A stretch of 64,000 nt of DNA from an uncultured Actinomycetes bacterium (GTDB taxonomy: Bacteria > Actinomycetota > Coriobacteriia > Anaerosomatales > CAVRZR01): positions 387,359 to 451,358 of the forward strand of contig CAVRZR010000003.1 in NCBI GenBank assembly GCA_963725795.1, read 5' to 3'. Of this stretch, positions 1 to 24,451 are shown piece after piece. A program made the position numbers and the translations under genes. Under the pieces are notes generated by a model. It was not told where the DNA came from, did not search any database, and saw only the letters and a program-made list of their open reading frames with translations. The first letter of the stretch is position 1. The number at the start of each line of letters is the position of its first letter.

Positions 1-701
1 GTCCCGATCCGCCTTGCGCCAAGCGCTGCCCGAAGAAGGCGATCAGCAAGAAGGACAACGGCGCAGTCGGACGTGGACTTCGCATTGTGCGATCCGACTG
101 TCTGCCAGATCAACGGCCAGTACCCGTGCGTTATCGACTGCCAGCGCGGTGGCTATCCCAAGATCGGTGTCGGCAGCGACAGCTACGCCGAGCCGGCAAG
201 GCGTTCAAGTGCACGCTGTGCAGCGAGCGGGCTGGCGTGACCGACACGTCCGTGCGCATTCCAGAACCCGCCGACCTCGCAGCACTACGCGAGCGGCTAC
301 GCGAGCACGCTTGTGTTCCCGGGCAGCGACAACGCCACGGTGATCCACGAGCTCAGCGCACGCGCCGATGTGCGTGTCCACCTGCCCGGCCAAGGCGATG
401 CAGTGGGACACGCAGGCGAACATCGTCAAGTACCTGAGGGCGAACTACGTCCTTGCCGGTGGCACACAGGGCTGGGTCGGCAACGGCGCGGTGTACTGGG
501 CCAGCAAGAAGGGCGCTCTCGCTCCGCCGAAGGCTGACCCGTTCGTTGAGGACCACCTCGCTCCCGGTGCTGCGGGCATCTTCTCGAGCCCCGTCGCCAA
601 GGCTGCGATCGTCCCGACGATCCTCGTGGGAGGTCTCATGGCACTCAGCGCCAGGCGCGCTGCCAACGAAGAAGCCTGCTGTCACAGAAGGGGAGGTGTA
701 G
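1..701 (+). pseudogene. 4Fe-4S dicluster electron-transfer subunit (NrfC/HybA/DmsB-like), 5' end outside window, frame-disrupted as assembled
   Basis: Cys motifs of ferredoxin-type subunits are read in three frames: PPCAKRCPKKAI (frame 3, nt 9-44), LCDPTVCQINGQYPCVIDC (frame 1), KAFKCTLCSERAG (frame 3, nt 198-236), MCVSTCPAKAMQWD (frame 2, from nt 368). C-terminal hydrophobic helix IVPTILVGGLMAL. Stop TAG 699-701. At least 5 frame changes by my reading. Confidence 0.65.
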
Positions 702-706
702 GCGTG

Positions 707-2004
707 ATGACGAAGAGACTTGCACTGCTGTTCGCGATCGCGACGCTCGCTGTACTGCTCGTGCCTGCCCTCGCCTTCGCCAACTTCGGTCCGCACGGCA
801 ACTACGTCCAGGACACGGACGCGTGCGCCGGCTGTCACCGTGCTCACACGTCAGTGAGCACGATCACTTGGCCGACGGAGAGAACGACCACAGCGCTTTG
901 CTGGTCTCCACCGCGACCGAGATGTACGAGTTCTGCTACGCGTGTCACGACGCCACCAGCCAGGGTGCCGACACCAACGTCCAGCAGGGCCTCTACGAGG
1001 GCACGCTGTACGGCGAGAATCGAGGCTATCCTGAACGGCGGCGGTTTCGACTCGCTCGATCTGACGTCCACCACCTCGACGCACATGTACACCGGTTCGT
1101 CGTGGGGTGCGTACGGCGGCGGCTACACCGGCGCGGGCACGACGGGAGCCGACGGTGTGTACGATGCGCCGGACGATCCGTTCGATGCCAACCTCGGCGA
1201 GTCTGTCCAGATCAAGATGGACTGCGGCTCGTGCCACGATCCCCACGGCAGCGCGAACTACCGCATTCTGAAGGCCGTACGTCAACGGCAACTACGTCGG
1301 TGGCTACACGCCGACTCTCGGCGACCCCAGCAACCCGAGCCCGAACGGCTTCGTCTCGTCGAACGAGACCGGCTGGCCGGCGACGGGCTTCCAGCTGCAC
1401 ACCGAGTACCCGGGCTACATCCCGAACTACACCACGCCGCTGTACGCCAAGGGCTACGACGATGCCACGACGCGACCGGCAGCGAGCCCGATCAGCCCGT
1501 CGAAAGGGCATGAGCGGTTGGTGCGTGGGCTGTCACAGCACCTACATGATCGACAACGCACAGGCACGCCGTTTAGCGGGACCGTCGGAACGGTCACCAG
1601 GTCTGACGCCACCACGTATGCCGCCATGGCTTGGAACTACCAGGCCAACGACGGCGGACCGCTGGCCCTGCGCCACAAGCACCCGGTCAACGTCGAGCTC
1701 TCGACGTACAACGGTCCCGACGAGTCGTCTTTCGACAACTCGCCAGTGCTCGGTCAAGGCGCACTGCCTCTCGCGCACGATCTTGGCGGGAACGGCACGG
1801 TTGCCAACGCCCAGGACGGACTGGATCGAGTGCCTGACGTGCCACCGTGCTCACGGTACGTCGGCTAACATGACCGGCTTTGCGGCTGACGGTTCGCTCG
1901 CAGTGGACCTCGACGGCACAGCTCGCAACAACTTCTTCGCGAGCCCGTCTGCACTGCTTCGACTCGACAACCGCGGCGTGTGCGAGGTTTGCCACAACAA
2001 GTAG
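707..2004 (+). pseudogene. secreted hexaheme c-type cytochrome, paralog A (frame-disrupted as assembled)
   Basis: RBS GGGGAGG then ATG 707. Signal peptide MTKRLALLFAIATLAVLLVPALAFA. Six CXXCH motifs spread over frames 2/1/3: CAGCH (824-838), CYACH, CGSCH, CVGCH, CLTCH, CEVCH. Ends RGVCEVCHNK-TAG 2002-2004. N- and C-termini nearly identical to the 11444-12793 gene. At least 6 frame changes. Confidence 0.8.
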
Positions 2005-2034
2005 CAGTCCTCTGCACGTAGCACGTGCGCTACC

Positions 2035-3648
2035 TTGGAAGGGCCGGGGATCGTCCCGGCCCTTCCTGTGTTGTCCGGAGGATATGGAGCGGAGGCGCCC
2101 TTGAAGTCGCGTTCAGCCGTGCTCGTAACGGCTTCGGTCGTCATAACGCTGGCCTTGCCGGCGAACTTCGTCGCGCAGACGGTGCTCGCGGACGAGCTGA
2201 GCGCTTCTCACCACGTTGCGTTGCTGGCCTTCGCGACGTTCATCCTGGTGTTCTTGATGACCGGGATCCCTCGGCGGGAGGAGCTTCGAGCGCTCGGCCG
2301 ATACGGTGCGCTGCGCGCGGCGGCGGCGGGGATACTCGGTGTGTACGCGTCGCAGCAACTCGTCCTCGCGAATCGCTACACCGACGCTCCTCCGGGGTCG
2401 GAGGTACTGTTCTTCACGACGGCGGCATGGGGCGTGATCGTCGTGCTCGCGTCGCTTGTCGTGCCCAAGAATCGACCTACCGCGCTCCAGGTGCTCTTGT
2501 CGGGTGTCGCGCTCCTTGGCGCGGCGGGCATCCTTGCGAATTGGGAACGCCCCAGCTCGTTCTCGCCCTTCGTCCGCTACCCGACCGAGCACGTGGCCAT
2601 GCTTTTGGCGGGCGCGGCGTGGGCTGGTTTCACGCTCCTGATCGCTCCTCTGGGCCGACAGCACAGATGGCGCGCGCTGCTGCCCCTCGCCACCGCCGCC
2701 GCGGCGATCGCGAGCGCCGTGCCGCTGCTGATCGATCCTCTGCGGGGCGACATCGTGGGTGAGGCGCTTTCCGTCGCACCCCAGCTGCTCGTAGCGACTA
2801 CCACGTTCGCCGCTATCGTCATTTCCTGGTCGTGGCTGGTGAGTACCACCGACACGGTACGTCCGGCCTCGCTTCTGTTCCTCCCGCCGGTCTCACTCAC
2901 CATACTGGGCGTGTTCGAGCGGGAGGTGGGTGCCTTCGGTCCGAGTCCTCTGCTGTGGAACGTCGTGTGGTGGGCCTGCGCCGTGACGGTCGCGGGCGCG
3001 CTGGGCGTCGCACTTCTCGGCCGAGCCTCGCTCCTTGGCAGGCACGTGGACGGGGTTTCTGGGACTGGGGAGGGTGGAAGGCGCCCGACACGCGATGTTG
3101 CGCGAGTCCTGGCCTATGTGGCGCTGATCCTGTCGACGACTGCGGTCGTCGCGGCGCTCGTCGCAGTTCGGGCGCCTGCGTTCGCCGCGAACGTCGTCGG
3201 GATTCGAGGAGACGGCTCGGCGTACGCGGCGTCATGGACGATGCCGGGCGCGGAGACGGTGGGCGACGTGCTTGTCGTCCTGGCTTCGCTCGCAGCACTC
3301 GTCGGCGCGGTCGGCTTCATCCGCTCGCAATGGAGAGAGATAGCGTTGCTCGAACTTGCCGCGATACTACTCGTTGCGCTTCTTGCCGTGCCCATTCTCG
3401 TTCGTACGCCGCTCAGGACGTGGACTCGCTGGATCCCTGGCGAGGTCCAGCAAGATTACGGTACGGAATATGCAAGGTTGACGCTTGAGCCAACGGACGG
3501 AACGGCCTCACGAGTCGCTGTGGCCGGGTCCGTCGCGGCAGTCGGGTTGCTTGCGACCGCGTCAGCCTTGCGCGTCATCCGACGACGCAGGTCGACGCCC
3601 ACCGCGCTCACGCCGGGTGCGAATGACGAGTCGGAGAGTGGCACGTAG
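2035..3648 (+). CDS. polytopic integral membrane protein, family not recognised (intact ORF)
   Basis: 537-codon uninterrupted ORF made almost entirely of hydrophobic helices (12 or more by eye), with a short charged C-terminal tail. The true start may be TTG 2101, after the hairpin and a GGAGG at about 2089. Confidence 0.6.
   Translation: MEGPGIVPALPVLSGGYGAEAPLKSRSAVLVTASVVITLALPANFVAQTVLADELSASHHVALLAFATFILVFLMTGIPRREELRALGRYGALRAAAAGILGVYASQQLVLANRYTDAPPGSEVLFFTTAAWGVIVVLASLVVPKNRPTALQVLLSGVALLGAAGILANWERPSSFSPFVRYPTEHVAMLLAGAAWAGFTLLIAPLGRQHRWRALLPLATAAAAIASAVPLLIDPLRGDIVGEALSVAPQLLVATTTFAAIVISWSWLVSTTDTVRPASLLFLPPVSLTILGVFEREVGAFGPSPLLWNVVWWACAVTVAGALGVALLGRASLLGRHVDGVSGTGEGGRRPTRDVARVLAYVALILSTTAVVAALVAVRAPAFAANVVGIRGDGSAYAASWTMPGAETVGDVLVVLASLAALVGAVGFIRSQWREIALLELAAILLVALLAVPILVRTPLRTWTRWIPGEVQQDYGTEYARLTLEPTDGTASRVAVAGSVAAVGLLATASALRVIRRRRSTPTALTPGANDESESGT
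2037..2066 (+). terminator. stem-loop after hexaheme cytochrome A (12-bp GC stem, 6-nt loop)
   Basis: GGAAGGGCCGGG-GATCGT-CCCGGCCCTTCC followed by TGTGTTGT. It overlaps the first codons of the longest form of ORF 2035..3648. Confidence 0.45.
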
Positions 3649-3649
3649 C

Positions 3650-4627
3650 ATGCGAGACCACATAGACGCACGGCGGCGATCTGCGAATTCCGCGCGGTCG
3701 ATACTGCCGCTGGTGACAGTCATTGCGCTGATCGCCACCCTCTCGATCGTCGTGTCTCTTTCGAGCGGGTGCGCCGAAAAGACGGTGACCGTCCAGACCG
3801 GAGAGCGCGTGGTGTGCACGTACGGCGAAGAAGTCTCGTCGACGGTGCACGCGGTCAAAGTCCCCGCCGACGAGGCGAACAAGTACTCCGTTCGCACGAA
3901 GCGCATCAAGTGCGATCGGCACGCTCAGCTCGAAGCACTCTATGGCGAGGCGCAGAACGCGATCTCGAAAGGCGATCTTGCGACAGCCGAGAAGAAGCTC
4001 GCTCAAGTAGTAGCGAGCGACACCTCATTCGCATCGGCGGCGAGCCAACTTGCCGACATCAAGAGCGGTCGAAAGCCCGCCGTTGACCGCGCAACGACCG
4101 GGTCGACGGCCCCCTCCTCGGGCGACGCTGGGGCGGGCGAATGAAGCGGATCGTCACCGGGCAGTGGAAGCGGTTCCGGTACGGGCGGCACCAAACCGGC
4201 CGATCCCGCCGTCCCTGAAGGTCCGGTCGCGAGTCTGCTCGTCTACACGCCCGATGTCCTGAGCGGCTATCGAGCCAAGAAGCCCAAGGCCGACGTCTTC
4301 TCTATCACGCGCGAGTACCTTCCGCTCGGGAGCCAAGAAGTCGTCGCGCTGGTGGTTCAGACGGAGCAGCACCGGTCGGATCAGGCGGCGAAACAGTGGA
4401 TTGCAGATAATGTAAAGGCGTTGTACGCACGTTCGGCACAGAATGTGCGAATCGAAGGCCGCGACGTCTACATGGGCACGGATGGCAAGCGCTTCGCCGT
4501 CGCGGGCTGGCGGGCGGCCCGGTGAGTGTCGGCGATCGAGGCGGAGGCGGCATCAGATCCCGCAGCGTACATTCCCGCACTGAAGGCCGTGTCGCCGAAG
4601 TGGCCCAGTGACGCCGACAAAGAGTAG
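3650..4627 (+). pseudogene. lipoprotein with Gly/Ser linker and conserved C-terminal domain (disrupted as assembled)
   Basis: ATG 3650. Signal peptide plus lipobox LSSGC. In-frame TGA at 4142-4144 and 4523-4525 with sensible protein continuing after each. Final stop TAG 4625-4627. The C-terminal domain resembles that of the 14612-15468 product. Confidence 0.5.
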
Positions 4628-4657
4628 CCGTCGCATAGCACTACCAGCGGGTTCGTG

Positions 4658-4686
4658 TTGACCTCCCTCAGAGGCGAGGGTATCGT
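4658..4686 (+). promoter_or_regulatory. sigma-70-like promoter upstream of TPR gene
   Basis: TTGACC (4658-4663), 17-nt spacer, TATCGT (4681-4686), about 80 nt upstream of ATG 4765. Confidence 0.35.
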
Positions 4687-4764: not shown

Positions 4765-5839
4765 ATGGAGCAGACACCGGAAGTACGCATTGCCACGCCC
4801 GGCTCATCGGGCCGGCTCGACACGCTCTTGCGTTGGCTCGTCGTGCTCGGCGTCGCCGTCGTTCTCGGCCTTGGCGGCCTCCTCGGCTACTCCGTCTGGC
4901 AAGCCCGCAACGCCGAGGATCTGTCCACGCCGGCGGGTCGAGCCATCGCGGACCTCAAGGACCGCGTCAAGGCGACGCCGAACGACGCCGAGCTGCGCGT
5001 CCGCCTCGGAGAGGCACTCGCCACGGCCGGCCTGATCGACGAGGCCATCGAGCAGTTCCGGACCGCCGTCAAGCTCGAGCCAGAAGCACACCGGGGCCTA
5101 CCTCGACCTCGGCATCATCGCGATGCAGAAGAAGCAGCCCAAGACCGCCGAGGGCTACTTCAACAAGGTCGTCGAGCTCACGACGAACAGCGAGATGCGA
5201 GAACGTCAACCAGCGGCAGGGAGACCGCGTTCTTCTACCTGGGCGAGATCGCCCTGGACGCGAAGCGCTACGAGGACGCGGTCGCCAACTTCAAGGCGTC
5301 GCTGCGCATTCGCCGAGACGCATCCGACACCTACTACCTGCTCGCGCAGGCCCTCAAGGGAATGGATCGTAACGACGCGGCACTGAAGCAGCTCGATGCG
5401 GCGCTCGCGTTCGATCCCAACTACGCCGAGGCGCACTACCTCATGGGCGAGATCTACCTGGACCGACGGCGACAAGATCAACGCGGCGGTGCATTTCCGC
5501 CTAGCCGCCGACGAAGGCGCCGGACCAGGATCTTCCGCAGGAGGCGCTCGCGTCTCTCGGCACGGCCGACGAGGCTCTCGCGCGCGGGCAGGAGTACCTC
5601 GTGAAGGAAGAACCAGATGAGCAAGGCGATCGACGAGGCGCTGCTCGCACGCGCTCTCGACCCGAAGAGCGTCGACGCCGCGCTGTTCCACGGCGGACCG
5701 CCGACGCGTCCGGCAAGACCTCGGCGGCGGTGACGGCGTACACGGCGGTCGCGAACTCGAGCTTTCGAAGAACGCAACGGCCAAGGCCGCGCTCGCGAGG
5801 CTAAGCCAAGACCGCACCCAAGAAGAAGAAGCTAGATAG
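4765..5839 (+). pseudogene. membrane-anchored TPR-repeat protein (frame-disrupted as assembled)
   Basis: N-terminal TM helix LLRWLVVLGVAVVLGLGGLLGY. TPR-like helices: AELRVRLGEALATAGLIDEAIEQFRTAVKLEP, FFYLGEIALDAKRYEDAVANFKASLRIRRD, YYLLAQALKGMDRNDAALKQLDAALAFDPNYAEAHYLMGEIYL. Followed through frames 1/2/1/2/3/2 to TAG 5837-5839. Confidence 0.65.
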
Positions 5840-5850
5840 AGGGAGCACCC

Positions 5851-7399
5851 GTGACTCGCAGGCGCAGGCGTCTGGTGATTGCTCTTGCATTGCTCGCGAT
5901 CCTGATCGCGCTGCTGAGCGTCGCCTACATCAACTACCGGGCGACCCGCAACATCGGGTTCGGTCTCGACCTGAACACCGGCGCCAGCTCGGCGCAGCCC
6001 GAGTTCATGTACTCGTTCGGCAGGTACGGGCGCGAACCGGCTCTCAAGCACCCGCTTGGCGTGCTCGTCTGACGACGACCGCGTGTACGTCACGGACTCG
6101 CGAGACGGCGAGGTCTACGTCTTCACGCTCGCGGGCAGGCTGATCGAGCTCGTTCGGCAAGGGCAAGCTCCTCGTCCCGCTCTACGTCGCGAAGAACCCC
6201 AAGACCGGCGAGCTCTGGGTCACCGACCGCCGTCTGCGGAGCATCGAGGTCTTCGACCGCGGATGGCAAGTGGCTTCGGACGTTCGATCCCGAAACTCCC
6301 CAAGAACCAGCTGCCCACGTTCGAACCGGCAACGTCCAGTGGGCGCCGGTCGCACTCGACTTCGCACCGGACGGCACTCTCTACGTGACCGAGATCCTCA
6401 ACGGCCACAGGCTGCTCGAGTTCGACCCCGACGGCAAGTTCGTGAAGTCGACGGGCACCATGGGTCTCGGTGACGAAGGCCGACCAGGCGCCCGACGCGT
6501 TCCAGTTCCCGAACAGCGTGAAGGTCCTCGGCAACGAGGTCTGGGTCGCCGACAGCAACAACCGCCGGCTCAAGGTCTACGACCGGAACCTCGAGTTCAA
6601 GCGCTTCCTGGTCACCTCGGGTCTGCCGCGAGGCTTCGTCTTCCTGCCCGCGCAAGCGAAGGAGCCGCAGCGACTCGTCGTCGTGGACACGCTGTCGCAC
6701 GACGCGACGATCTGGGAGGCGCAGATCGGGCAAGAAGGTGCTGACTTTCGGGCAGCATGGCGTTCTGGACGGGCCAGTTCAGCTACCCGAACGACGTCTC
6801 CACCGACGGCGTCCGCCGGATGTTCGTCGCCGACACGTCCAACGGTCGCATCCAGGTGTGGGGTTGGCCCGTCAGAGGCGACTCCGATCCCGACGCCGCG
6901 CACGCCGCTTCAGTGGCTGCTGTGCCTGTCGCCCGCTGCTGCTCCTGCCGCTGCTCCTGCTCCTGCGCGTCGCAAGCGGTTCTTCGCCACCGCCGACTTC
7001 GTGCGAGCTGATGTACGACGCCGAGGAGATCGAGCTCTTGCCGGGCGGGCGGCGAAGTGGTTCGTGACGCCGGACGTACTACGAGGCCTTCAAGGCCGCG
7101 TCCAGGGCGACATCGAGATGTCGGAGCTGCTGAATCCGAGGAGCACTCCGAGTCCGACGCGCAGGCACTCATGGAGCGCTTCGAGCTCGACTACCCGTCA
7201 GCGGTCGGCACTCTCGATCGCGCAGCGCTCGAAGGTGTTCTGCACCGAGGATCCCGAGCTCCGTCGCCTTGCTCGCGTCATGGAAGTCGACGTCGTGAAC
7301 CGCGTCGAGTACATCGAGCGGTTCGTGAAAGAGCAGGCGCGATCAGCCCACGGCGCCGAGGACACGCCTCCGCCGCCCGACATCGGTGAGGATGCATAA
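5851..7399 (+). pseudogene. NHL-repeat beta-propeller protein with N-terminal anchor; the 3' third (TM helix plus soluble tail) may be a separate gene (frame-disrupted as assembled)
   Basis: RBS AGAGGGAG, GTG 5851. TM helix LVIALALLAILIALLSVAY. NHL-type blades: DRVYVTDSRDGEVYVF, GELWVTDRRLRSIEVFD, DGTLYVTEILNGHRLLEFDPDGKF, NEVWVADSNNRRLKVYD, RMFVADTSNGRIQVWGW. Then a Leu-rich helix LQWLLCLSPLLLLPLLLLL, RRKR, and an acidic tail ending TAA 7397-7399. Confidence 0.6.
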
Positions 7400-7412
7400 C
7401 TGACTCCAGAAC

Positions 7413-9213: not shown

Positions 9214-9237
9214 CGCAAGGAAGGAGGGAAGACGTAA

Positions 9238-12870: not shown

Positions 12871-12997
12871 CTCGGTATCTGAGTGCGCACGCGCAATTTG
12901 GTAAATATAATCTCTGGTGCGGCGTTCGGAATGGATCCACCGCTCATGCCCACGCTAGATGCGTCTCCAACCCGCACGTTAAGAGAAGAGAGCGACT

Positions 12998-16807: not shown

Positions 16808-17314
16808 CCCCGTTCGGCGCATCGAGCGACGATTCGACAAGCGTCGCATTCTGCCAGGAATGCGGGTTCGGCACGAAGCGCGGGCGCCCGGATTGCCTGA
16901 CTCCACGTGAGCTTGAGCGCAAACCACTTCTTCCACTATCGGTTTCTGCTGCTCAGCCCGTATAATCGATTCCAAATGCCCGCCGATTTGGCAACGCGGG
17001 CGGAAAGACGGCCGACCGAGTCTGCCGCCGGTCGATTGTGTGCTGCACGCCGCATCCGGCTGAAGGGCCCACGTGGAAGATAGCAACGCCCAAAGAACCT
17101 GCCTGGGGTCGACGGTGTTCGTGCAGCCCAGCCAGCCCTCGCGCGCTCGGACGGGTCGATGAGTAGACACGGGCGACATTCTCGTGCGTCGGGCGCTTCC
17201 CGGCTTCGGGTGTATGCGCGCGCTCACTCGCTTGCGCTCGTTGGAGCGGCCGTCATCGTGGCGCTGGCCATGGTGGTCATCGGCGCGATCGTGAGCGCTT
17301 CGGCGGCCGACACG

Positions 17315-20270
17315 CACGAGATCACGGCCTCTGCCGGCGCGGGAGGAACGATCTCGCCCTCAGGCGCCGTGACCGTCCCCGATGGGTCGACGGAGACCTT
17401 CACCATCACGCCAGCCAAGGGATACGTCGTAGCCGATGTGGTCGTCGACGGGGGCAGTCAGGGCGGCCTGCTTAGCTACGCATTTAGCAACGTCACTGCC
17501 GCGCACACGATTTCAGCGACGTTTGCGGTGGCCTCGGCAACCGGCGGCACCGTTACGGAGATTCTGGGCTATCGGATCCACCGGTTCACGACGACCGGTA
17601 CGTTCACGCCGAACGGTGCGGGCCTGATAGACGCCCTCGTCGTCGGAGGTGGAGGCGCAGGCGGCAGTGTTTCCGCGGTGGCGAACTACTACGCCGGCGG
17701 CGGCGGAGGAGGCGGGTTCCGCACTCAGACAGACGTGAGCCGTCGACTCCGCAACAAGCGTTGTCGTTGGCAGCGGGGGCATCGCCGCAGCCGGCGCGCC
17801 GGGCGGCTATGGAAGCTCTTCGGCATTCGGCTCGATCGTCGCGACAGGTGGCGGTGGTGGCGGTGCCGCGACCGGCTCCACGACAGTGTACGCCGGCCTC
17901 AGCGGAGGCTCGGGCGGCGGAGGAGCACGATTCGGGACGTCATACGGACCGGGCGGTCTCGGCGCGCTCGGGGAAGGCTCGGACGGAGCGGCAGCAGCGG
18001 CGAACCGAGGCGGCGGTGGTGGCGGTGCGAGCGCGGCCGCGACCACGCAGAATGGTGGCGCCGGGCAGTCAAGCACGTTCTCGGGCGCGACCGTTCGCTA
18101 CGCCGGTGGTGGCGGAGCAGGCGGGCTCACCGCCGGTACGGGCGCTGACGGCGGCGGCAACGGCGCGAGCACGGCGAACGGATCGCCGGGCGCCGTCAAC
18201 ACCGGTGGCGGCGGCGGTGGCGCCGGCACCGGCGGCGCCACGCCGAGAACCGGGGGCAACGGCGGCAGCGGCGTCGTGATCGTCCGCTATGCGATTCCCA
18301 CGTACGTAGTGACAGCCACAGCCGGAGTCGGCGGGACGATCTCTCCGAGCGGTGTGACGACTGTGAACGTCGGCGCGAATCAGTCCTACACGGTCGCAGC
18401 CAATAGCGGCTACTGCATCGTCGACGTGAAGGTCGACGGTGCGAGCCAGGGTCCCGTCTCGGGATACACCTTCAGCAACATCGCGGCGGATCACACGATC
18501 GCCGCCACCTTCGCGACCTTCCCGGCCACGGGTGGCAGCTCGCCCGTGCAGGATGGCACGCACGTCGTCCAGACGTTCACCTCCAGCGACGTGTTCACTC
18601 CGGTGGCGCCCCTGACGGCCGATGTCCTCGTTGTCGGAGGAGGAGGCGCGGGCGGAGGCAACTCAGCTAACGCAGGCTTCTACGGCGGAGGTGGGGGCGC
18701 CGGAGGATTCCGGGCTGCCACAGACGTCGAGGTGAGCGCGTCTGCGACAGTCACCGTCGGTCCGGGAGGTCTCGGCGCTTCGGCGGCGCGGGGCGGCTCG
18801 GGTGGCGCATCTTCGTTCGCGACGATCACCGCCGTGGGTGGCGGTGGCGGAGGCGCGGGCTCGGCGACGAATGCCGACGGTCTCGGCGGCGGGTCTGGAG
18901 GCGGCGGTGGCCACTACACCGCTAACGGCTCCGGCTGGTGCGGGGACATCCGCTGAAGGGAATGCGGGAGCAGCTGCCGCGTCCGGCCCCGATCGGGGCG
19001 GCGGTGGTGGCGGAGCGGGATTGGCGGCCACGTCGCAGAACGGCGGGGCGGGCCAATCCAGCAGCATTTCGGGCGCGAGCGTCACCTACGCCGGCGGCGG
19101 AGGTGCTGGCGCAGCGACTCCTGGGACCGGGGCAGCTGGCGGTGGCAACGGCAGCGGTGCAGGCAACGGATCCGCCGCTACCCCGAATTCGGGAAGTGGC
19201 GGCGGTGGCAGCGGCACGGGCAACGCCAATGCGCGCTCAGGCGGGAATGGCGGGAGCGGTATCGTGATCGTTCGCTACCAGCTGCCGTCCACGACCCACA
19301 CGATCGCCGCCTCTGCGGGCGCCGGTGGATCCATCTCGCCGAACGGGGTGGCTACGGTCTTCGCGGGCGGCAGCCAGACATATTCGATCACACCCAACAG
19401 CGGCTACTACATATTCGATGTCGAGGTCGACGGCGTGAGCCAGGGATCCGTTGTGGCTTACACCTTCTCGAATGTGACTTCGGACCACACGATCACGGCG
19501 ACCTTCGCCGCGCTACCAGCGAGCGGTGGTGGCACTATCACGCGCGACGGCGACTTTGTTGTGCATACGTTCACGAGTGGCGGCACCTTCGCGCCCGTCG
19601 TACCGGTCAATGCCGAAGTCCTGGTGGTCGCCGGAGGCGGCGGCGGCGGACGTCAGCCAGGCACCAACGGCAGGTTCGCCGGCGGCGGCGGCGCTGGCGG
19701 AGTGACGACCGCAACAGTTGCTGTTGCGTCGCCGGCCACCGTAGTTGTTGGTACTGGCGGGATAGGACCTGGCAACGTCAACCCGGGGTCTGACGGCGGC
19801 GCCTCTTCATTCGGCGCGGTCACTGCCGTGGGCGGAGGCGGCGGCGGGTCCCTGGCGGGGCGAAGCGGCGGATCCGGCGGCGGCGGTGGATGTACTTCTG
19901 CGGCCCAGGGCGTGGGCGGATCCGGCACGGCGGGGCAGGGCTTCGCGGGCGGATCCGGACTGACGAACACGGCCGCCGGTGGCGGCGGTGGCGCAGGAGG
20001 CATCGGCGCGGGAGGTGCGGTCGGCGGGCAGGGCGGCGTTGGCGGGAGCGGCACGCCGAGTTCCATCTCCGGCTCGCTGCTCTACTACGCGGGTGGAGGC
20101 GGCGGCGGCGGTGCGTCCGCCGGTGCCGGGGGAACCGGCGGCGGCGGGGCGGGAGGTGCCGGAGCATCAGCAGGAGCCAACGCGACCTTCTATGGCGGCG
20201 GCGGTGGCGGCGGCTCTCTCGGTGGCAGCGGCTACAGCGGCGTCGTTGTCGTCCGCTACGAGATCCCCAG
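17315..20270 (+). repeat. three tandem ~1-kb coding modules, each [InlB-B-repeat-like beta domain + ~230-aa glycine-rich domain]
   Basis: Module starts at about 17315, 18300 and 19294. B-repeat consensus: H(T/E)I(T/A)ASAGAGG(T/S)ISP(S/N)G...G(Y)...DV.VDG.SQG....YTFSNV...HTI.ATFA. Gly-rich consensus: TGG......H.FTS.G.F.P.....D/EVLVVGGGGAGG...GGNGGSG(V/I)VIVRY.(I/L)P. Confidence 0.7.
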
Positions 20271-21568
20271 CTACGCCGTCACGGCCACGGCGAGCGCCGG
20301 CGGTTCGGTGTCGCCGAGCGGCACGACGAACGTGCTCTACGGCGGAAACCAGACCTTCGCGATCACGTCCTGACGTCGGCCATCATACCGTTGACGTCCT
20401 CGTGGACGGCGTGAGCCAGGGCGCTCTGTCCGCGTACACGTTCTCGAGTGTCACGGCGAGCCACACGATCTCCGCGAGCTTCGCCGCGGACACCTTCACC
20501 ATAGCGACGGAACCGAGCGTGAATGGCACGATCACGCCGTCCTCGCCGACGGTGGAGTATGGCTCCAATCAGACGTTCCTGATCCAGCCGGATCCCGGCT
20601 ACCACGTCGCGGACGTCCTGGCTGACGGCGCGAGCCAGGGTGCGGTCAGCTCCTACACGTTCTACAACGTGAGCGCCGCCGGTCACACGATCTCGGCGGT
20701 GTTCGAGCTGGACGCAGCGACGGTGCTGGGAGTCTCCTCGGCGCACCAGCCTCCGGCAGCATTCGCTGCGCGCTCCAGCAGGCGCGCGGTGGATGGATTC
20801 ACACTCGCGCGCGTCTCAGGCTCGGATCCCATCTCGGCCACGGGCGTCACTGTCACGAACAGCGGTACGTCGCCTGAGGCGAACGTGAGCGGGGTCTATG
20901 TCTACCGTGACGACGGAAATGACGAGTTCGGGGTGCCCGACATCGCGCTGAACGTCACGGCCGGCAGCTTCAACAGTCCGACTGCGACGGTGACATTCGA
21001 CAGTCCGGAGTCCGTCGGCACCACGCCGACCCAGTACTGGCTGGTGTACGAGTTCGCGCCTCTCGCGAACGACGGTGTCACCACGGATTCGCGCATCGCC
21101 GAAGTGAACGCCGGTCCGATTCCGGTCGATTACACCGTGACGGCCGGCGCAACGTTCACCGTCGACGCCATTGGCCCCAGCGTGGCGATCGACGCTCCGA
21201 CGAATGACGCGACTCTCCTCGGCGCGTCCACCGTCATCTCCGGGACCGCGTCGGATTCCGGCTCCGGTGTAGGCCTGGTAGAGGTCTCGATACTGCGCTC
21301 CGACGGCAAGTTCTGGACGGGCTCCGATTGGTCTGCGACCCAGACGTGGCGCTCGGCGATCGGTACGTCCACGTGGACCTATGGCTGGGTCCTCGATGCG
21401 GAGCAGAGCGGTCTTCAGACCTACACCATCTCAGCGCGTGCGACCGACGGCGTCGGCACCGGGGGAGACGAGGCGCTCGTGACCGGTGTTCGGGTGGAGA
21501 ACTCCACCCCGATCGAAGTCTCCGACGTGCCTCCGCCGCACGTCAGTACCGGCGACGACACGGACGCG

Positions 21569-22396
21569 TGCGCGATGTGCCACCGCTCCCATACCTCGGC
21601 CTCGACCGATACATGGCAGAGCGGGGAGGCGTCGGCCGCGCAGCGGACGTCACTCAGTGTCGGAACCGGAACGTACGACGCCGGCATGTGCTACTCGTGT
21701 CACGGCGTCGAGTTGCTCGGTTCTGGGACGGACATCCAGACCCCATTCCAGAGCGGCTCCGGCCATGTCCTGGCCCCTGACACGAGCCCGTACGGGCCCT
21801 CCCCCAAGGAGTGCAGCGACTGCCACGATCCGCATGGCACCGACCATACCTCCGGCGGGACGCCATATCCGGCGCTCCTACGCTCAATGGACGCGAGCGG
21901 AAGTCCCGTATACCAAGGCGACGTCTACTGCGTGAGCTGCCATGAAGTGCGACCCGGCAGCACGTGGGACGGGTTGGGCGTCTGGCGCACAACGGCGCAC
22001 GCGGGCATGCCCGGCCCCGCTTCGGGCACGGGCATCGTCTGCTCCGACTGTCACGACCCGCATGGGTCACCGAACGCCCCGACGATCGCGCCTCGCGTGT
22101 ATCCGCCCTCAGCGCCGGCTACGGCGGCGGTGACGGCGAACGATCGGACGCTGTGCGTGGCGTGCCACGCCGAAGCGACGGCCACCTGGGGTGGCTCCTC
22201 GCTCTACTCCTCCAGCTCGCATGCCTCGTCCAACGCGACCGTCGGCATTCCTGGCGAGTGGCCGGATCCGGATGCCTCTCGAAAGGTCGGAGAGTGTCAG
22301 GTCTGTCACAACCCGATGGGAGAGGATGACGGTACGGGACGCGCCCTTCCCAAGCTCACGCGGATCTCGGGCGAGAACCTCTGCTACACGTGCCAC
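21569..22396 (+). other. heme block 1 of giant protein: 8 CXXCH motifs
   Basis: CAMCH (21569-21583), CYSCH, CSDCH, CVSCH, CSDCH, CVACH, CQVCH, CYTCH (22382-22396), all in frame 2. Confidence 0.85.
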
Positions 22397-22479
22397 GGTG
22401 CCACCGGCCCCGCCCGGACGGACATGCGCACGGTAGCGGTCGAAACCACGCTGACGAGCGCGTTCGAGGTCGTGGCGAG

Positions 22480-23610
22480 CTTCAGCGCCGCCGGTGACAT
22501 GCCGGACTACGGGCGCGTGCTCTATTACTCGCAAGACAGCTCCGCGACACCGCCGAGGCCTCTCCTGGGCGCGAGGCCGCTCCGGACTGCGGCGGGCGTC
22601 GGCGCCGTCGCGGCGGGTGACATCGACGGAAACGGTCGTGCCGAGATCCTCGTGGCAGACTCCGCCTCGCTGCAGATAGACGTCTTCGCGTACGACAAGC
22701 TTCGCGGCGTGTCCGACCGTGTCGGTCCGGGTCTCCTGCCGGTGGCCGCCACTGCCGAGTACCTCGCTGTTGGTGACGTGCTGCTGGACTCATGGGGATT
22801 GCCGGAAGTCGTGATGATCGACAGGGGCGCGAACGAGCTGTACGTCTATCGCTACGCAGCCGCGACGTGGACTCTGGTCGATGGGCCGATCGCGGTCGGC
22901 AACGTGAGCGGGATGACCATCGGTGATGTGACCGGGACGTCTCAGGCCGATGTCGTGCTCACCGTTCACGGGCCGGATCGTGTCGTCGTCCTGTCGGAGG
23001 ACTCAGGCCACCTGCTCGAGAGCTCAGTGTTCGGTGCGCGCGCGGGCGTGCGCGGTCCGAGCATCGGCGATGTGTTGTCGGAGCCGGGCAATGAGATCGT
23101 CGTGGCCAATGCCGACGAAACGAGCGACACCGTGTCGGTCTATCGTGCCGACGGCACGACGCTCGGCCACCTCAACGGTGATGAGCTGCCCGGTCAGCGT
23201 GCGACGGCGTCCGCGATAGGAGACGTCCTGCCTGAGGTTCCCGGCCCCGAGGTTCTTGTTTCTTACGCGGATCCTCTGGCGGGCAGTCGGCTGGACGTGT
23301 TCTCGCTCGATGCTACGACCGGTGTGGGCACCGTGGTCGGCTACGACGCGGGAGAGCGTTTCAACCCGGCTGCGATCGCGGTCGGGGACGTGAATGGAGA
23401 CGGGCACAGCGAAGCGCTGCTAGCAAACGCCGGGGCGTTCACGCGTGACGGATCGCGCGAGCGCGCCTCGGTCTCTGTGTTCCGCGCAAACGGAACGGGG
23501 GACGGGCTTGTCGGGCCTCAGATCCTCTCTGGCGGTGGCGCGGAACTCGCGAGCGGGACTGTCCAAGTCGCGATCGCGGACGTGGGAGCGACCCCTCAGA
23601 CTGGACACCC
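22480..23610 (+). other. FG-GAP/VCBS-type beta-propeller region of giant protein
   Basis: About seven repeats of the GD(I/V)(D/N/T)G.G..(E/D)(I/V/L)(L/V)V type: GDIDGNGRAEILVAD, GDVLLDSWGLPEVVMID, GDVTGTSQADVVLT, GDVLSEPGNEIVVAN, GDVLPEVPGPEVLVSY, GDVNGDGHSEALLAN, IADVGATPQ. Confidence 0.6.
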
Positions 23611-23674
23611 GATCGGCGCGGTCCCGGATACGCATGTGTCGACCGAGACGTTCACTCTCGCTCGCCACGTCGAG

Positions 23675-24382
23675 TGCGTCGACTGCCACTCTCACGACGC
23701 TGACAGCGCGGACGCCTCCGCCCCTGTCGTCTTCGGCGCGCTGAAGGGCGCGTGGGGAGTTGCGGTTCAGAATCAGTCATCGGCTGCATACGACCTGACA
23801 CAGCAGCAGGGAGTCCGCTACGAGTACGAGCTCTGCCTGAAGTGCCATTCGCAGTGGTCGGCTCTGGAAGGCAGCGCCGACCTGGCGTCTCTGGTAAACA
23901 CGCGGAACGCGTCGGTGCATGCGATCGAAGAGCCGTCCGCCGACGCGAGCATCCCGGCTGGTTCGTTCCAGGACGGCTGGAGTGACGACTCGGCGCTTTA
24001 TTGCACCTCGTGTCATGGGAACTCGAATCCTTCAGAACCCGCAGGCCCGCATCGCTCGGGTGAGGCGCCCATCCTCGTTCGACCGTACTGGGGCGTCGCC
24101 CCGGACGATGCGGCGGGTCTGTGCTACGAATGTCACCGATATGCCGTGTATCTGACGGGAGCGGAAGACACGTTGGCGGATCCGAAGAGCGCCTTCTACC
24201 TGTCCACGGGTTCGGGCTCCACGGGCCAAGAGGCGCTGCACTCCTACCACGCAGATACACTCGGGTTCGCCTGCGGCTCGTGTCACGTCTCACACGGCTC
24301 GCGGCAGGAGCTGCACTTGCTGCGTTCGGACATCGGCTACACGCCCGATGCGAGCGGCGGCTCGTGCGCGAATCAGTGCCAC
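23675..24382 (+). other. heme block 2 of giant protein: 5 CXXCH plus 1 CX3CH
   Basis: CVDCH (23675-23689), CLKCH, CTSCH, CYECH, CGSCH, CANQCH (24365-24382). Confidence 0.8.
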
Positions 24383-24451
24383 GGAACCGGAGGCGCGACC
24401 AGGTCGTACCTCAGGCCGTAGCCGCGAACGCCTGCGACAGTCGGTGGTCGG

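What the first reader, a model, noticed from the sequence alone, without database searches (positions are those of the whole stretch)
1..24421. Hydrogenase plus multiheme-cytochrome island: candidate H2-linked extracellular electron-transfer pathway of a monoderm
Seen in sequence, all on the + strand:
- A Tat-signal [NiFe] hydrogenase (7825-11417) is followed directly by a secreted hexaheme cytochrome (11444-12793), not by a b-type cytochrome.
- Upstream lie an Fe-S subunit with a C-terminal anchor helix, a paralogous hexaheme cytochrome and a membrane protein of 12 or more helices (1-3648).
- TPR and NHL-propeller proteins follow (4765-7399).
- Downstream is a 14-heme giant surface protein (17159-24421).

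Established knowledge: Tat-exported uptake hydrogenases oxidise H2 outside the cytoplasm and reduce cytochromes. Chains of multiheme cytochromes spanning membrane, wall and surface are the known solution for metal reduction in Gram-positive bacteria such as Thermincola. NHL-repeat proteins often accompany such cytochromes.

Inference: the island encodes a wire from H2 to an extracellular acceptor, or the reverse (electron uptake to make H2). I cannot match this component set to a described system, in particular cytochrome c as the immediate hydrogenase partner combined with a giant chimeric terminal cytochrome.
Basis: partly seen in the sequence, partly recalled or inferred. Interest (0 to 1): 0.8.

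Follow-up and report, generated by a model that had tools for sequence, protein, structure and literature searches.

The report
Hydrogen/formate enzymes wired to OmcS-like cytochromes
A Gram-positive (Coriobacteriia-type) bacterium encodes an exported formate dehydrogenase and an exported hydrogenase side by side, each followed by its own six-heme cytochrome related to the Geobacter 'nanowire' protein OmcS, plus a giant surface cytochrome; this probably lets it pass electrons between hydrogen or formate and minerals, electrodes or partner cells, and the many apparent gene breaks are sequencing noise.

Summary
In detail: every listed gene is present at the stated coordinates on the + strand.

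1. The window starts inside a formate-dehydrogenase operon. Intact syntenic loci carry a Tat-exported, selenocysteine FDH-N-type alpha subunit just upstream.
2. The island is two paralogous cassettes, each led by its own TPR+NHL pair. Cassette A runs FdnG, FdnH-like, cyt1, (transporter), unkA. Cassette B runs hydrogenase small subunit, large subunit, cyt2, unkB, p286.
3. Both hexaheme cytochromes are homologs of Geobacter OmcS (profile vs PDB E=8e-9 and 5e-11, collinear, all six heme sites plus the inter-subunit His16). As in Geobacter, an NHL gene accompanies them.
4. The ~80 frameshifts are technical. They are ±1 indels without homopolymer bias, the large subunit shows 0/156 changes at invariant residues, and relatives are intact.

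The 12+-helix membrane protein has a DMT transporter fold and is not a redox subunit.

The H2/formate-to-outside wire reading is supported by comparative genomics, but it is not new as a concept (Hernsdorf 2017, Kobayashi 2021, Khomyakova 2022). Cytochrome c as a hydrogenase partner is textbook. What appears unreported is the OmcS-family identity of the dedicated partners and the modular cassette. Verdict: new variant of a known kind.

The parts
1..701 (+). FdnH/HybA-like four-cluster Fe-S subunit of formate dehydrogenase (5' end cut by the window; about 5 frameshifts), with a C-terminal membrane-anchor helix
   Evidence: Frameshift-aware alignment: 94% identity to the intact L081 ortholog and 75% to L001. 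NCBIfam HybA/FDH-beta/DmsB-type hits on the L002 ortholog. Upstream FdnG is present in syntenic loci.
707..2004 (+). cyt1: secreted hexaheme OmcS-family cytochrome paired with the formate dehydrogenase (about 6 frameshifts)
   Evidence: 6 CXXCH. 93% identity to intact L081 cyt1. The family profile A3 hits OmcS 6EF8 at E=5e-11.
2101..3648 (+). DMT-fold membrane protein (10-TM transporter core plus extra helices and a small beta domain); intact
   Evidence: AF2 pLDDT 92, pTM 0.92. Foldseek best hits are YddG 5I20, PfCRT, TPT and LicB, TMt 0.66-0.71. JGI names homologs 'DMT-like permease'. Present in 26 of 59 cassette-A loci.
3650..4611 (+). unkA: lipoprotein-type extracytoplasmic protein with no known domain; paralog of p286
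   Evidence: 96% identity to L081 unkA. Lipobox in L001 ortholog; paralogous to p286/p264 at E~1e-10. No Pfam or NCBIfam hit.
4765..5800 (+). Membrane-anchored TPR protein, first gene of the hydrogenase cassette (about 8 frameshifts)
   Evidence: Pfam TPR families. Aligns to L001/L002 TPR. Precedes NHL in both cassettes across loci.
5851..7399 (+). Membrane-anchored NHL beta-propeller protein (13-17 frameshifts)
   Evidence: NHL/DUF5128 hits on orthologs. Alignment. An NHL gene also neighbours omcS in Geobacter (PMC9070056).
7825..9213 (+). [NiFe] hydrogenase small subunit with a Tat signal and no C-terminal membrane anchor (about 13 frameshifts)
   Evidence: 81% identity to L001 after correction. 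Pfam Oxidored_q6 and NiFe_hyd_SSU_C on orthologs. Closest PDB entry is the NiFeSe small subunit 2WPN_A.
9238..11417 (+). [NiFe] hydrogenase large subunit (~725 aa, long-insert clade) ending at DPCIACAVH with no C-terminal extension (18-19 frameshifts)
   Evidence: 0 of 156 deviations at columns at least 95% conserved.
11444..12793 (+). cyt2: secreted hexaheme OmcS-family cytochrome paired with the hydrogenase (6-7 frameshifts)
   Evidence: 6 CXXCH. 89% identity to intact L081 cyt2. The family profile A2 hits only OmcS in the PDB, E=8e-9, profile positions 38-427 vs OmcS 8-406 of 407.
12918..14416 (+). unkB: conserved ~480-aa protein with no known domain or signal peptide; specific to cassette B
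   Evidence: 65% identity to L001 unkB. Present in 10 of 10 B-only loci. No Pfam hit.
14612..15468 (+). p286: N-terminally anchored protein, paralog of unkA
15540..16807 (+). Big_5/Ig-like-domain protein conserved in cassette B
   Evidence: tblastn to L002 Big5 and L001 'big'. Big_5 Pfam hit on the L002 ortholog.
17159..21427 (+). N-terminal surface-repeat region of the giant protein: membrane anchor/signal, 3x (InlB B-repeat + glycine-rich domain) and further Ig-like repeats (3 frameshifts)
   Evidence: Pfam Flg_new_2 and Gly_rich_2. Frame changes at about 17759, 18900-19250 and 20371.
21428..24421 (+). Conserved 'bigcyt' module: 13 CXXCH + 1 CX3CH with an FG-GAP propeller between hemes 8 and 9; its first ~180 aa are homologous to the N-terminal half of the OmcS-like cytochromes
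   Evidence: 44% identity to the L002 1007-aa ortholog. Pfam Paired_CXXCH_1, MtrC/F domain and FG-GAP. Homology to cyt2 at E=1.6e-12. Accompanies 21 of the 69 cassette loci: 19 with A, 2 with B only.
35618..37792 (+). Outside the finding: 21-heme cytochrome with an NapC/NirT/NrfH-type N-terminal domain (candidate quinol-linked membrane cytochrome)
   Evidence: 21 CXXCH. Pfam Cytochrom_NNT. NCBIfam NrfH.

Best explanation
The island is two tandem, paralogous 'dehydrogenase-to-cytochrome-wire' cassettes of a monoderm Coriobacteriia-type bacterium.

Cassette A (its start lies upstream of the window) encodes a Tat-exported, selenocysteine FDH-N-type formate dehydrogenase (FdnG plus membrane-anchored FdnH-like Fe-S subunit) with no cytochrome b. 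Cassette B encodes a Tat-exported, anchorless group-1 [NiFe] hydrogenase with no cytochrome b and no protease-cleaved C-terminus.

Each enzyme is followed, with operon-like spacing, by its own secreted hexaheme cytochrome of the OmcS family. Each cassette also carries its own membrane-anchored TPR and NHL-propeller proteins (probable cytochrome assembly or scaffold factors, as proposed for the NHL gene next to Geobacter omcS) and an unkA/p286-type anchored protein.

Shown: homology, topology signals, gene order and its conservation.

Inferred:
- Formate and H2 are oxidised at the outer face of the membrane.
- Electrons go from the enzymes' distal Fe-S clusters straight into the OmcS-like hemes and not into the quinone pool.
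- The chain is probably reversible (electron uptake to make H2/formate).
For: - Synteny: 53 A-only, 10 B-only and 6 tandem A+B loci among 78 species-level loci, nearly all Coriobacteriia, Actinomycetota or Thermoleophilia. Intact copies exist in L001, L002/L003 and L081.
- FdnG: Tat signal, FDH-N alpha as best model, in-frame TGA inside HQARI-U-HSSTVAG...FGRGAMTNHW.
- Hydrogenase: closest solved relatives are the soluble periplasmic NiFeSe/NiFe enzymes; Tat motif and no anchor.
- OmcS homology: cyt2 profile gives OmcS as the only PDB hit, E=7.9e-9, full length. cyt1 profile gives E=5.2e-11, next hit 0.002. All six CXXCH plus His16, 110, 147, 257 and 335 equivalents are conserved.
- NHL next to omcS in Geobacter (PMC9070056).
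- Thermoleophilia locus L047 has the same TPR-NHL-OmcS-like unit next to cytochrome b plus multiheme c genes, which fits interchangeable input modules on a common output.
- bigcyt N-terminus is homologous to the OmcS-like proteins, and surface-type repeats are fused to it.
- Physiology of relatives: the EMTCatB1 FDH and its adjacent multiheme (locus L044 is a cassette A) are highly expressed on a working cathode (PMC7943316). Parvivirga hydrogeniphila is an obligate Fe(III) reducer on H2/formate with an FDH+multiheme cluster (PMC9686372).
- 24-26 nt spacers with Shine-Dalgarno sequences between small subunit, large subunit and cyt2.
Against: - No experiment exists on this cytochrome family.
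- Oxidising H2/formate and reducing the acceptor both outside the membrane creates no proton-motive force. Growth-supporting respiration would need an additional inward or quinone-linked route that is not encoded in the cassettes. The only membrane protein is a DMT-type transporter found in under half of the A loci.
- The Foldseek comparison of the AF2 cytochrome model gave no OmcS hit (pLDDT 63), so the fold relationship rests on sequence profiles.
- bigcyt accompanies only 21 of the 69 cassette loci within the +/-10 kb examined.
- The hydrogenase described for the cultured Anaerosomatales is a different one (group 1i with cytochrome b).
- Cassette presence in P. hydrogeniphila itself was not verified by sequence.
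- Direction of electron flow is undetermined.
Confidence: 0.55

Rival explanations
1. Cytochrome-c3-like hub for ordinary respiration. The hexaheme cytochromes act as monomeric partners, as TpIc3 does for Desulfovibrio periplasmic hydrogenases and FDHs. They hand electrons from H2/formate to membrane complexes (for example the NrfH/NapC-type 21-heme cytochrome, nitrite or sulfur reductases, or inward transmembrane conduits). The system would then serve soluble or cell-associated acceptors and energy conservation, not extracellular transfer.
For: - The closest solved hydrogenases are the c3-coupled periplasmic enzymes.
- Bioenergetics favours electrons re-entering the membrane (inference).
- An NrfH/NapC-type 21-heme cytochrome lies 11 kb downstream.
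- EMTCatB1 encodes nitrite respiration.
- bigcyt is absent from most cassette loci within +/-10 kb.
Against: - The partner is OmcS-family and not c3-family.
- It travels with NHL/TPR as omcS does.
- The cassettes contain no quinone-reactive or transmembrane redox subunit.
- A surface-repeat-fused 14-heme protein is part of the island.
- Relatives are Fe(III)- or electrode-active.
Confidence: 0.22
2. Primarily an electron-uptake device. The cytochromes collect electrons from cathodes, Fe(0) or partner cells, and the exported hydrogenase and FDH work reductively to release H2 and formate outside the cell, as proposed for EMTCatB1 feeding a methanogen.
For: Cassette-A genes of EMTCatB1 are among the top 10% of transcripts on a methane-producing cathode, and the FDH Fe-S subunit is higher in closed circuit than in open circuit (PMC7943316). 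L044 confirms the cassette. OmcS in Geobacter also works in uptake (PMC9070056 text).
Against: - Making H2/formate outside the cell yields no obvious energy for the producer.
- Cultured Anaerosomatales consume H2/formate.
- Sequence cannot give direction; this is a direction variant of the best explanation rather than a distinct mechanism.
Confidence: 0.15
3. The island is a decaying pseudogene cluster in this genome and does nothing.
For: About 80 frameshifts are concentrated in 1-20.4 kb, whereas 24.4-64 kb holds intact housekeeping genes and one clear frameshift.
Against: - The indels are +/-1 nt, 45 insertions to 37 deletions, with no homopolymer bias (2.37 vs 2.36 random).
- There are essentially no in-frame stops. 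The single one, at 4142, sits in a low-complexity linker and looks like an indel pair.
- The large subunit has 19 frameshifts yet 0 of 156 changes at columns at least 95% conserved, against 0.5% in intact homologs.
- All 25 heme motifs are kept.
- The closest relative L081 has these genes intact while its own FdnG is shredded, typical of an error-prone long-read assembly.
Confidence: 0.05

Closest known systems
Geobacter sulfurreducens OmcS (hexaheme nanowire cytochrome, PDB 6EF8/6NEF) with the neighbouring NHL-repeat gene GSU2505
   Same: Similar size (about 400-450 aa). Six CXXCH in the same order over the full length. Shared N-terminal CxxCHxxH, CHDPHG, WCxxCH, CLxCHRAH and C-terminal CxxCHxK. 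His16, 110, 147, 257 and 335 equivalents conserved. An NHL-propeller gene lies alongside.
   Different: Only profile-level similarity. The host is a monoderm. The genes sit directly behind a hydrogenase or a formate dehydrogenase rather than being charged by periplasmic PpcA-E (PMC10954620). Two paralogous copies exist. A TPR partner is present. Polymerisation is unknown.
Desulfovibrio/Desulfomicrobium periplasmic [NiFe]/[NiFeSe] hydrogenases (HynAB, HysAB) and FdhAB with cytochrome c3
   Same: Tat-exported, anchorless heterodimer. Closest solved structures (1CC1, 2WPN, 2FRV). A c-type multiheme cytochrome is the direct acceptor, with no cytochrome b. Hydrogenase and FDH run in parallel on a cytochrome pool.
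   Different: The large subunit is about 200 aa longer with inserts and has no C-terminal extension. The partner is OmcS-family and not tetraheme c3. The host is a monoderm without a periplasm. No Qrc/Hmc/Tmc-type complex is nearby.
E. coli formate dehydrogenase-N (FdnGHI)
   Same: Tat signal; Sec active-site motif; FDH-N alpha is the best model; beta subunit with a C-terminal membrane helix.
   Different: FdnI (dihaem cytochrome b, quinone site) is absent and replaced in gene order by the hexaheme c cytochrome. The alpha subunit is about 1290 aa with insertions.
Thermincola potens / Carboxydothermus ferrireducens multiheme chain of Gram-positives (ImdcA, PdcA, CwcA, OcwA)
   Same: The concept is the same: multiheme c cytochromes spanning membrane, wall and surface of a monoderm metal reducer.
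   Different: No sequence match of cyt1, cyt2 or bigcyt to any solved structure other than OmcS, so none to OcwA if its structure is in the copy searched. The input here is an exported dehydrogenase and not a quinol oxidase.
Published relatives: Coriobacteriaceae EMTCatB1 FDH + multiheme 1c0406 (PMC7943316); Parvivirga hydrogeniphila cluster MCL4079376-90 (PMC9686372); Coriobacteriales S27 OmcS homolog (PMC7399161); Horonobe Actinobacteria (PMC5520028)
   Same: Same lineage. The same cassette A is verified in EMTCatB1 (L044). The same proposal of H2/formate-linked extracellular electron transfer or uptake has been made.
   Different: None of these papers links the OmcS homolog to the dehydrogenase operons, describes the hydrogenase-cytochrome cassette B, or describes the TPR-NHL module.
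HydDB group 1i 'Coriobacteria-type' [NiFe] hydrogenase
   Same: Same class of organisms; respiratory uptake type.
   Different: As described, group 1i has a cytochrome b subunit and a maturation protease. The enzyme here has neither in its cassette, and its large subunit ends at the last Ni ligand motif.

Membership tests
OmcS family (hexaheme cytochrome) | Six CXXCH motifs collinear with OmcS over the whole protein, with significant sequence-profile similarity | tested here: met
   A2 profile vs PDB: OmcS is the only hit, E=7.9e-9, profile positions 38-427 vs OmcS residues 8-406 of 407. A3 profile: E=5.2e-11.
OmcS family (hexaheme cytochrome) | His in CxxCHxxH (OmcS His16, which ligates heme 5 of the next subunit; own knowledge of Wang et al. 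2019) and the other non-motif His ligands | tested here: met
   The His16 equivalent is invariant in 65 of 65 and 17 of 17 sequences. His110, 147, 257 and 335 equivalents are conserved in A2.
OmcS family (hexaheme cytochrome) | Same three-dimensional fold | tested here: inconclusive
   AF2 model pLDDT 63, pTM 0.64. Foldseek against the PDB gave no significant hit.
OmcS family (hexaheme cytochrome) | Polymerises into conductive filaments | not testable with these tools
   Needs multimer modelling with hemes, or cryo-EM.
Group 1 respiratory uptake [NiFe] hydrogenase | Large-subunit Ni-binding motifs (RxCGxC ... DPCxxCxxH) and NiFeSe_Hases domain | tested here: met
   RICGVC and DPCIACAVH are present. 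PF00374 on homologs. 0 of 156 deviations at conserved columns.
Group 1 respiratory uptake [NiFe] hydrogenase | Tat signal on the small subunit; Fe-S small-subunit domains | tested here: met
   MAITRRQFV. Oxidored_q6 plus NiFe_hyd_SSU_C on orthologs. Alignment to 2WPN_A.
Group 1 respiratory uptake [NiFe] hydrogenase | C-terminal extension of the large subunit removed by a maturation endopeptidase (typical of the group; own knowledge) | tested here: not met
   The window and all 70 clade members examined end at ...DPCIACA[V/I]H.
Group 1 respiratory uptake [NiFe] hydrogenase | Formal subgroup (HydDB classifier / phylogeny) | not tested
   No classifier was available. By score it is nearest to group 1a NiFeSe enzymes (NCBIfam; PDB), far below the family cut-offs.
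HydDB group 1i / 1c / 1d membrane-bound types | Cytochrome b (or HybB) membrane subunit in the operon | tested here: not met
   The gene after the large subunit is the hexaheme c cytochrome in the window and in all 10 B-only loci and the tandem loci whose fetched flank reaches it.
FDH-N-type formate dehydrogenase (FdnGHI) | Tat-exported Mo-bisPGD alpha subunit with the Sec/Cys active-site motif | tested here: met
   Met in the syntenic relative L003 (TIGR01553 E=2.5e-101 plus the N-terminal piece; Tat signal; TGA in the motif). The window itself lacks this gene because it starts inside the beta subunit.
FDH-N-type formate dehydrogenase (FdnGHI) | Four-cluster beta subunit with a C-terminal TM helix | tested here: met
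   Window 1-701.
FDH-N-type formate dehydrogenase (FdnGHI) | Dihaem cytochrome b gamma subunit (quinone site) | tested here: not met
   Absent. cyt1 follows the beta subunit after 5 nt.
Qrc / alternative complex III type (Mo-like + Fe-S + multiheme c + NrfD) | NrfD-like quinone-interacting membrane subunit; catalytically dead Mo-subunit | tested here: not met
   The membrane protein has a DMT fold. The Mo subunit keeps the Sec motif.
DMT (drug/metabolite transporter) superfamily | 10-TM DMT fold | tested here: met
   Foldseek: 5I20 (YddG) E=4e-5, prob 1.00, TMt 0.69; also PfCRT, TPT, LicB and SLC35. Pfam EamA was not detected in the window protein at E<0.01.

The most novel reading that the evidence does not exclude
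The OmcS-like hexahemes polymerise, as OmcS does, into heme filaments that cross the thick Gram-positive wall. They would be charged directly by a docked hydrogenase or formate dehydrogenase ('enzyme-fed nanowires'). The TPR/NHL pair would act as the assembly machinery, and the 14-heme protein, whose N-terminus mimics an OmcS-like subunit, would act as filament cap or surface terminus. This would be a widespread actinobacterial route for H2/formate-driven mineral reduction, interspecies electron transfer and cathodic H2/formate production.
Probability: 0.25. Interest if true: 0.85.

Novelty: new variant of a known kind. Interest (0 to 1): 0.64.

Why it matters
How Gram-positive bacteria move electrons across a thick wall, and what feeds electrons into cytochrome nanowires, are open questions. 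In Geobacter the feeders are small periplasmic cytochromes.

Here an OmcS-family cytochrome is hard-wired, gene next to gene, to a hydrogenase and to a formate dehydrogenase that have both lost their quinone-reactive subunits. The arrangement recurs in dozens of species-level genomes from aquifers, sediments, soils, bioanodes and biocathodes.

If functional as inferred, it gives a compact route linking H2/formate to minerals, electrodes or syntrophic partners. That is relevant to subsurface H2 consumption, corrosion, electromethanogenesis and bioelectrosynthesis. It is directly testable, because cultured relatives exist (Parvivirga hydrogeniphila, Anaerosoma tenue).

It also shows that a frameshift-ridden locus in a metagenome assembly can be rescued and interpreted.

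Tried and rejected
- GC3 frame plot: too noisy to define frames.
- Retrieval of the window's own source contig (592,725 bp; 100% match P0121) failed, so the true upstream sequence and accession could not be read.
- Foldseek of the cytochrome model gave only noise.
- PDB sequence searches gave nothing useful for single cyt2 or for bigcyt.
- Idea that Fe-S + cytochrome + membrane protein form a Qrc/ACIII-like quinone reductase: rejected. The Mo subunit is a genuine Sec-FDH and the membrane protein has a DMT fold.
- Idea that the membrane protein is NrfD-like: rejected.
- Idea that the locus is pseudogenised: rejected.
- Idea that the hydrogenase is the group 1i enzyme described for Anaerosomatales: not supported, because there is no cytochrome b or protease.
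- L081 was first taken for the same organism, but it is only 83-90% identical at DNA level.

Full report
**1. What is in the sequence**

The window is 65% G+C. On the + strand of 1-24421 there are 25 CXXCH motifs, against 0.47 +/- 0.67 in shuffles. They fall as 6 at 824-1981, 6 at 11558-12770 and 13 at 21569-24272. A C-terminal CANQCH brings the giant protein to 14 hemes. ORF listings and stop-to-stop translations showed that most genes here change frame repeatedly.

A stitched large-subunit query found a large clade of 650-720-aa [NiFe] large subunits in Coriobacteriia and Actinobacteria MAGs. The contigs of the two best NCBI hits (L001, L002) carry the same genes, in the same order, intact. 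Frameshift-aware alignment to these orthologs, and later to the closer relative L081, placed every gene:

| Gene | Coordinates |
|---|---|
| Fe-S subunit | 1-701 |
| cyt1 | 707-2004 |
| membrane protein | 2101-3648 |
| unkA | 3650-4611 |
| TPR | 4765-~5800 |
| NHL | 5851-7399 |
| hydrogenase small subunit | 7825-9213 |
| hydrogenase large subunit | 9238-11417 |
| cyt2 | 11444-12793 |
| unkB | ~12918-14416 |
| p286 | 14612-15468 |
| Big_5-like protein | ~15540-16807 |
| giant protein | 17159-24421 |

**2. The frameshifts are technical**

A codon-usage Viterbi over the whole window put about 25 of 36 same-strand frame switches in 1-13.5 kb and 3-4 in the front of the giant gene. Beyond 24.4 kb, nearly all switches are ordinary gene boundaries. 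That region holds intact lysS, clpC, radA, disA, ispD, cysE, cysS, an rRNA methylase, a sigma factor and tuf, with one clear frameshift in a DUF362/ferredoxin gene near 33770.

The ~80 inferred events are +/-1-nt indels: 45 insertions and 37 deletions. They show no homopolymer enrichment (mean local run 2.37 vs 2.36 +/- 0.07 at random). There are essentially no in-frame stops. The one at 4142 lies in a Gly/Ser linker and looks like an indel pair.

After correction, all 25 heme motifs are intact. The large subunit has 18-19 frameshifts, yet it deviates at 0 of 156 columns that are at least 95% conserved in 70 homologs (intact homologs deviate at 0.5%). Natural decay with that many indels should have brought many substitutions and stops; this step is inference from general knowledge of pseudogene evolution.

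The closest relative found is L081 (ENA ERZ25039554 contig_55911), at 83-90% DNA identity. It has Fe-S, cyt1, membrane protein, unkA, NHL, large subunit (725 aa) and cyt2 as single genes, while its own FdnG region is shredded. That is the behaviour of error-prone long-read metagenome assemblies.

I could not retrieve the window's own 592,725-bp source record. I put about 90-95% on the frameshifts being technical artefacts.

**3.

The window begins inside the Fe-S gene. In L002/L003 the gene upstream is a Tat-signal FDH-N-type alpha subunit. It is split by gene callers exactly at an in-frame TGA within HQARI-U-HSSTVAGLAAAFGRGAMTNHW, which I recognise as the FdnG selenocysteine motif. L081 has Molydop_binding fragments in the same place.

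The Fe-S protein is FdnH/HybA-like with a C-terminal helix. No FdnI-type cytochrome b follows. cyt1 starts 5 nt after the Fe-S stop.

**4. Architecture: two paralogous cassettes**

A scan of species-representative genomes with the cytochrome alignment gave 395 related stretches. The best 80 (78 loci) are almost all Coriobacteriia, Actinomycetota or Thermoleophilia MAGs. They include Coriobacteriaceae EMTCatB1 and an Anaerosomatales MAG.

Mapping all island proteins onto these loci gave:

| Type | Loci | Gene order |
|---|---|---|
| Cassette A only | 53 | TPR, NHL, FdnG, FdnH-like, cyt1, (membrane protein in 26 of 59), unkA, (bigcyt in 19) |
| Cassette B only | 10 | TPR, NHL, small subunit, large subunit, cyt2, unkB, p264/p286, Big_5, (bigcyt in 2) |
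| A+B in tandem, as in the window | 6 | both, in series |
| Bare module | 4 | TPR, NHL, cytochrome |

Several genomes hold A and B at separate loci. TPR, NHL, the cytochrome and unkA/p286 are paralogous between the cassettes. So TPR and NHL in the window lead the hydrogenase cassette; they do not trail the first unit.

In the Thermoleophilia locus L047, the bare TPR-NHL-cytochrome unit is preceded by a cytochrome b (PF01292) and two multiheme c genes. That is a quinol-dehydrogenase-type input.

**5. Identity of the parts**

- **Hydrogenase.** The closest solved structures are the soluble periplasmic [NiFeSe] enzymes (1CC1, 2WPN), then D. gigas and A. vinosum [NiFe]. NCBIfam gives the same ranking, far below the cut-offs. 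The small subunit has a Tat motif and no anchor. The large subunit, in the window and in all 70 clade members checked, ends at DPCIACA[V/I]H, so there is no protease-cleaved extension.
- **Cytochromes.** cyt1 and cyt2 are 41-44% identical paralogs with a cleavable signal (AFA|NFGPHG) and an invariant C-terminus NRGVCExCHNK. A single sequence finds nothing in the PDB. The cyt2-type profile (65 sequences) hits only OmcS (6EF8/6NEF), E=7.9e-9, profile positions 38-427 against OmcS 8-406 of 407. The cyt1-type profile (17 sequences, including EMTCatB1) hits OmcS at E=5.2e-11, with the next hit at 0.002. All six heme motifs align, as do the equivalents of His16 (CxxCHxxH), His110, His147, His257 and His335. 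NCBI itself names one member 'OmcS'. The AF2 model was weak (pLDDT 63) and Foldseek found nothing, so the structural test is inconclusive.
- **Membrane protein.** A very confident model (pLDDT 92) has a DMT transporter core: YddG 5I20, PfCRT, TPT, LicB, TMt 0.66-0.71. It is not a redox subunit.
- **Giant protein.** The N-terminal ~1400 aa are InlB-B-repeat and glycine-rich surface modules. The C-terminal ~1000 aa are the conserved bigcyt, with Paired_CXXCH, MtrC/F-like and FG-GAP regions. The first 180 aa of bigcyt are homologous to the N-terminal half of the OmcS-like proteins (E~1e-12). bigcyt has no PDB relative by sequence.

**6. Literature**

- Hernsdorf 2017 (PMC5520028) noted Horonobe Actinobacteria with many multiheme cytochromes plus uptake hydrogenases that could feed metal respiration.
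- Kobayashi 2021 (PMC7943316) found the EMTCatB1 formate dehydrogenase with its adjacent multiheme cytochrome, and a NiFe hydrogenase, highly expressed on a methane-producing cathode. They proposed electron uptake through the cytochromes. L044 shows this is a cassette A.
- Khomyakova 2022 (PMC9686372) isolated Parvivirga hydrogeniphila, an obligate Fe(III) reducer on H2 or formate. They singled out an FDH+multiheme cluster. The hydrogenase they describe is group 1i with cytochrome b and a protease, unlike the one here.
- Arbour 2020 (PMC7399161) recorded in one sentence an OmcS homolog (28% identity) in a Coriobacteriales genome from an anode biofilm, without gene context.
- No paper in the library mentions OmcS together with Coriobacteriia.
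- PMC9070056 states that the NHL gene GSU2505 lies next to omcS and may be needed for its assembly or expression.
- In Geobacter, OmcS wires are charged by PpcA-E (PMC10954620).

**7. Mechanism**

Shown: homology, export and anchor signals, tight operon spacing with Shine-Dalgarno sites, and conserved modular synteny.

Inferred: formate and H2 are oxidised outside the membrane. Electrons enter the cognate OmcS-like cytochrome directly, because both enzymes lack a quinone-reactive subunit. They then move through the heme network to the 14-heme surface protein and on to external acceptors, or in reverse. TPR, NHL and unkA/p286 are assembly or scaffold factors.

The L047 arrangement suggests one output unit with interchangeable inputs: quinol, formate or H2.

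The main weakness is bioenergetic. Donor oxidation and acceptor reduction on the same side of the membrane give no proton-motive force. Either the chain also feeds an inward or quinone-linked route (the rival c3-like hub reading; the NrfH-type 21-heme cytochrome at 35618-37792 is a candidate link), or it serves non-growth functions such as uptake, interspecies transfer or redox balancing.

My confidence split is 0.55 for the bidirectional extracellular wire, 0.22 for the c3-like hub, 0.15 for uptake as the primary role, and 0.05 for a dead locus.

**8. Novelty and verdict**

The general idea is published, and cytochrome c as a hydrogenase partner is classical.

Three things appear unreported:
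- Both dehydrogenases' dedicated partners belong to the OmcS family.
- They sit in a conserved TPR-NHL-dehydrogenase-cytochrome cassette that occurs in A, B, tandem and bare forms.
- The hydrogenase clade lacks both cytochrome b and the C-terminal extension.

I class this as a new variant of a known kind, interest about 0.64. The most novel reading still open is enzyme-fed OmcS-like filaments crossing a Gram-positive wall, at p~0.25.

Noticed in passing
window 35618-37792 (+), followed by 37898-38737: A 724-aa cytochrome with 21 CXXCH motifs and an NapC/NirT/NrfH-type N-terminal domain, followed by a DUF2085 membrane protein. It is a candidate quinol-linked entry or exit point for the heme network, 11 kb downstream of the island.
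   Followed up: partly
window 9238-11417 and 70 homologs (P0001-P0120): The whole large-subunit clade ends exactly at DPCIACA[V/I]H, with no C-terminal extension. Maturation would therefore not need the usual endopeptidase, which is unusual for group-1-type enzymes. The proteins are also about 150-200 aa longer than solved group-1 large subunits.
   Followed up: partly
window 1-20400 vs 24400-64000: Indel errors are extremely patchy: about 5 per kb in most island genes, none in the 1.5-kb membrane-protein gene or the last 4 kb of the giant gene, and about one in the remaining 40 kb. The cause is unknown (low or strain-mixed coverage of an accessory island in a long-read assembly?).
   Followed up: partly
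window ~33766 (- strand, ORFs 33097-33783 and 33722-34285): A DUF362 + 4Fe-4S ferredoxin-domain gene is split into two overlapping ORFs. This is the only clear frameshift outside the island.
   Followed up: no
window 4142-4144: In-frame TGA inside unkA within a Gly/Ser-rich linker (GAGE*SGSS vs GAGGSSGGSS in L081). Probably a compensating indel pair, not a true nonsense codon.
   Followed up: partly
window 24452-25651 (-), 28087-28983, 29163-30101; L002 20557-21612 (-): Peptidoglycan-remodelling genes lie directly downstream of the giant surface cytochrome: YkuD L,D-transpeptidase with PG_binding_4, a PG_binding_1 protein, and an NlpC/P60 hydrolase. The YkuD gene is in the same position in L002. 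There may be a link to passing cytochromes through the wall.
   Followed up: no
window 26144-27694 and 30140-31327: A GAF-GGDEF diguanylate cyclase and a type II/IV secretion-family ATPase (T2SSE) lie between the island and the 21-heme cytochrome.
   Followed up: no
L003 280-1896 and 3045-4604: Upstream of FdnG in the intact relative lie a 538-aa multiheme cytochrome with a c7-type 'nanowire_3heme' domain and the cassette-A NHL protein. The corresponding region of the window's genome lies before position 1.
   Followed up: partly
L047 3831-11092: Thermoleophilia locus with cytochrome b561 (PF01292), two multiheme c cytochromes, TPR, NHL and an OmcS-like cytochrome. A radical-SAM gene follows, and a ferrochelatase-containing gene lies on the opposite strand.
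   Followed up: partly
PDB 9yuq_N: The second-best PDB hit of the cyt1-type profile (E=0.002) is a 218-aa 'putative multiheme cytochrome c' present as 16 chains in one entry, possibly another filament-forming cytochrome. Not examined.
   Followed up: no
L001 small subunit, residue ~59: In L001 the first proximal-cluster motif reads ECTGDS where the window and NiFeSe enzymes have CTGCS. This is a possible Cys-to-Asp ligand change in one relative.
   Followed up: no
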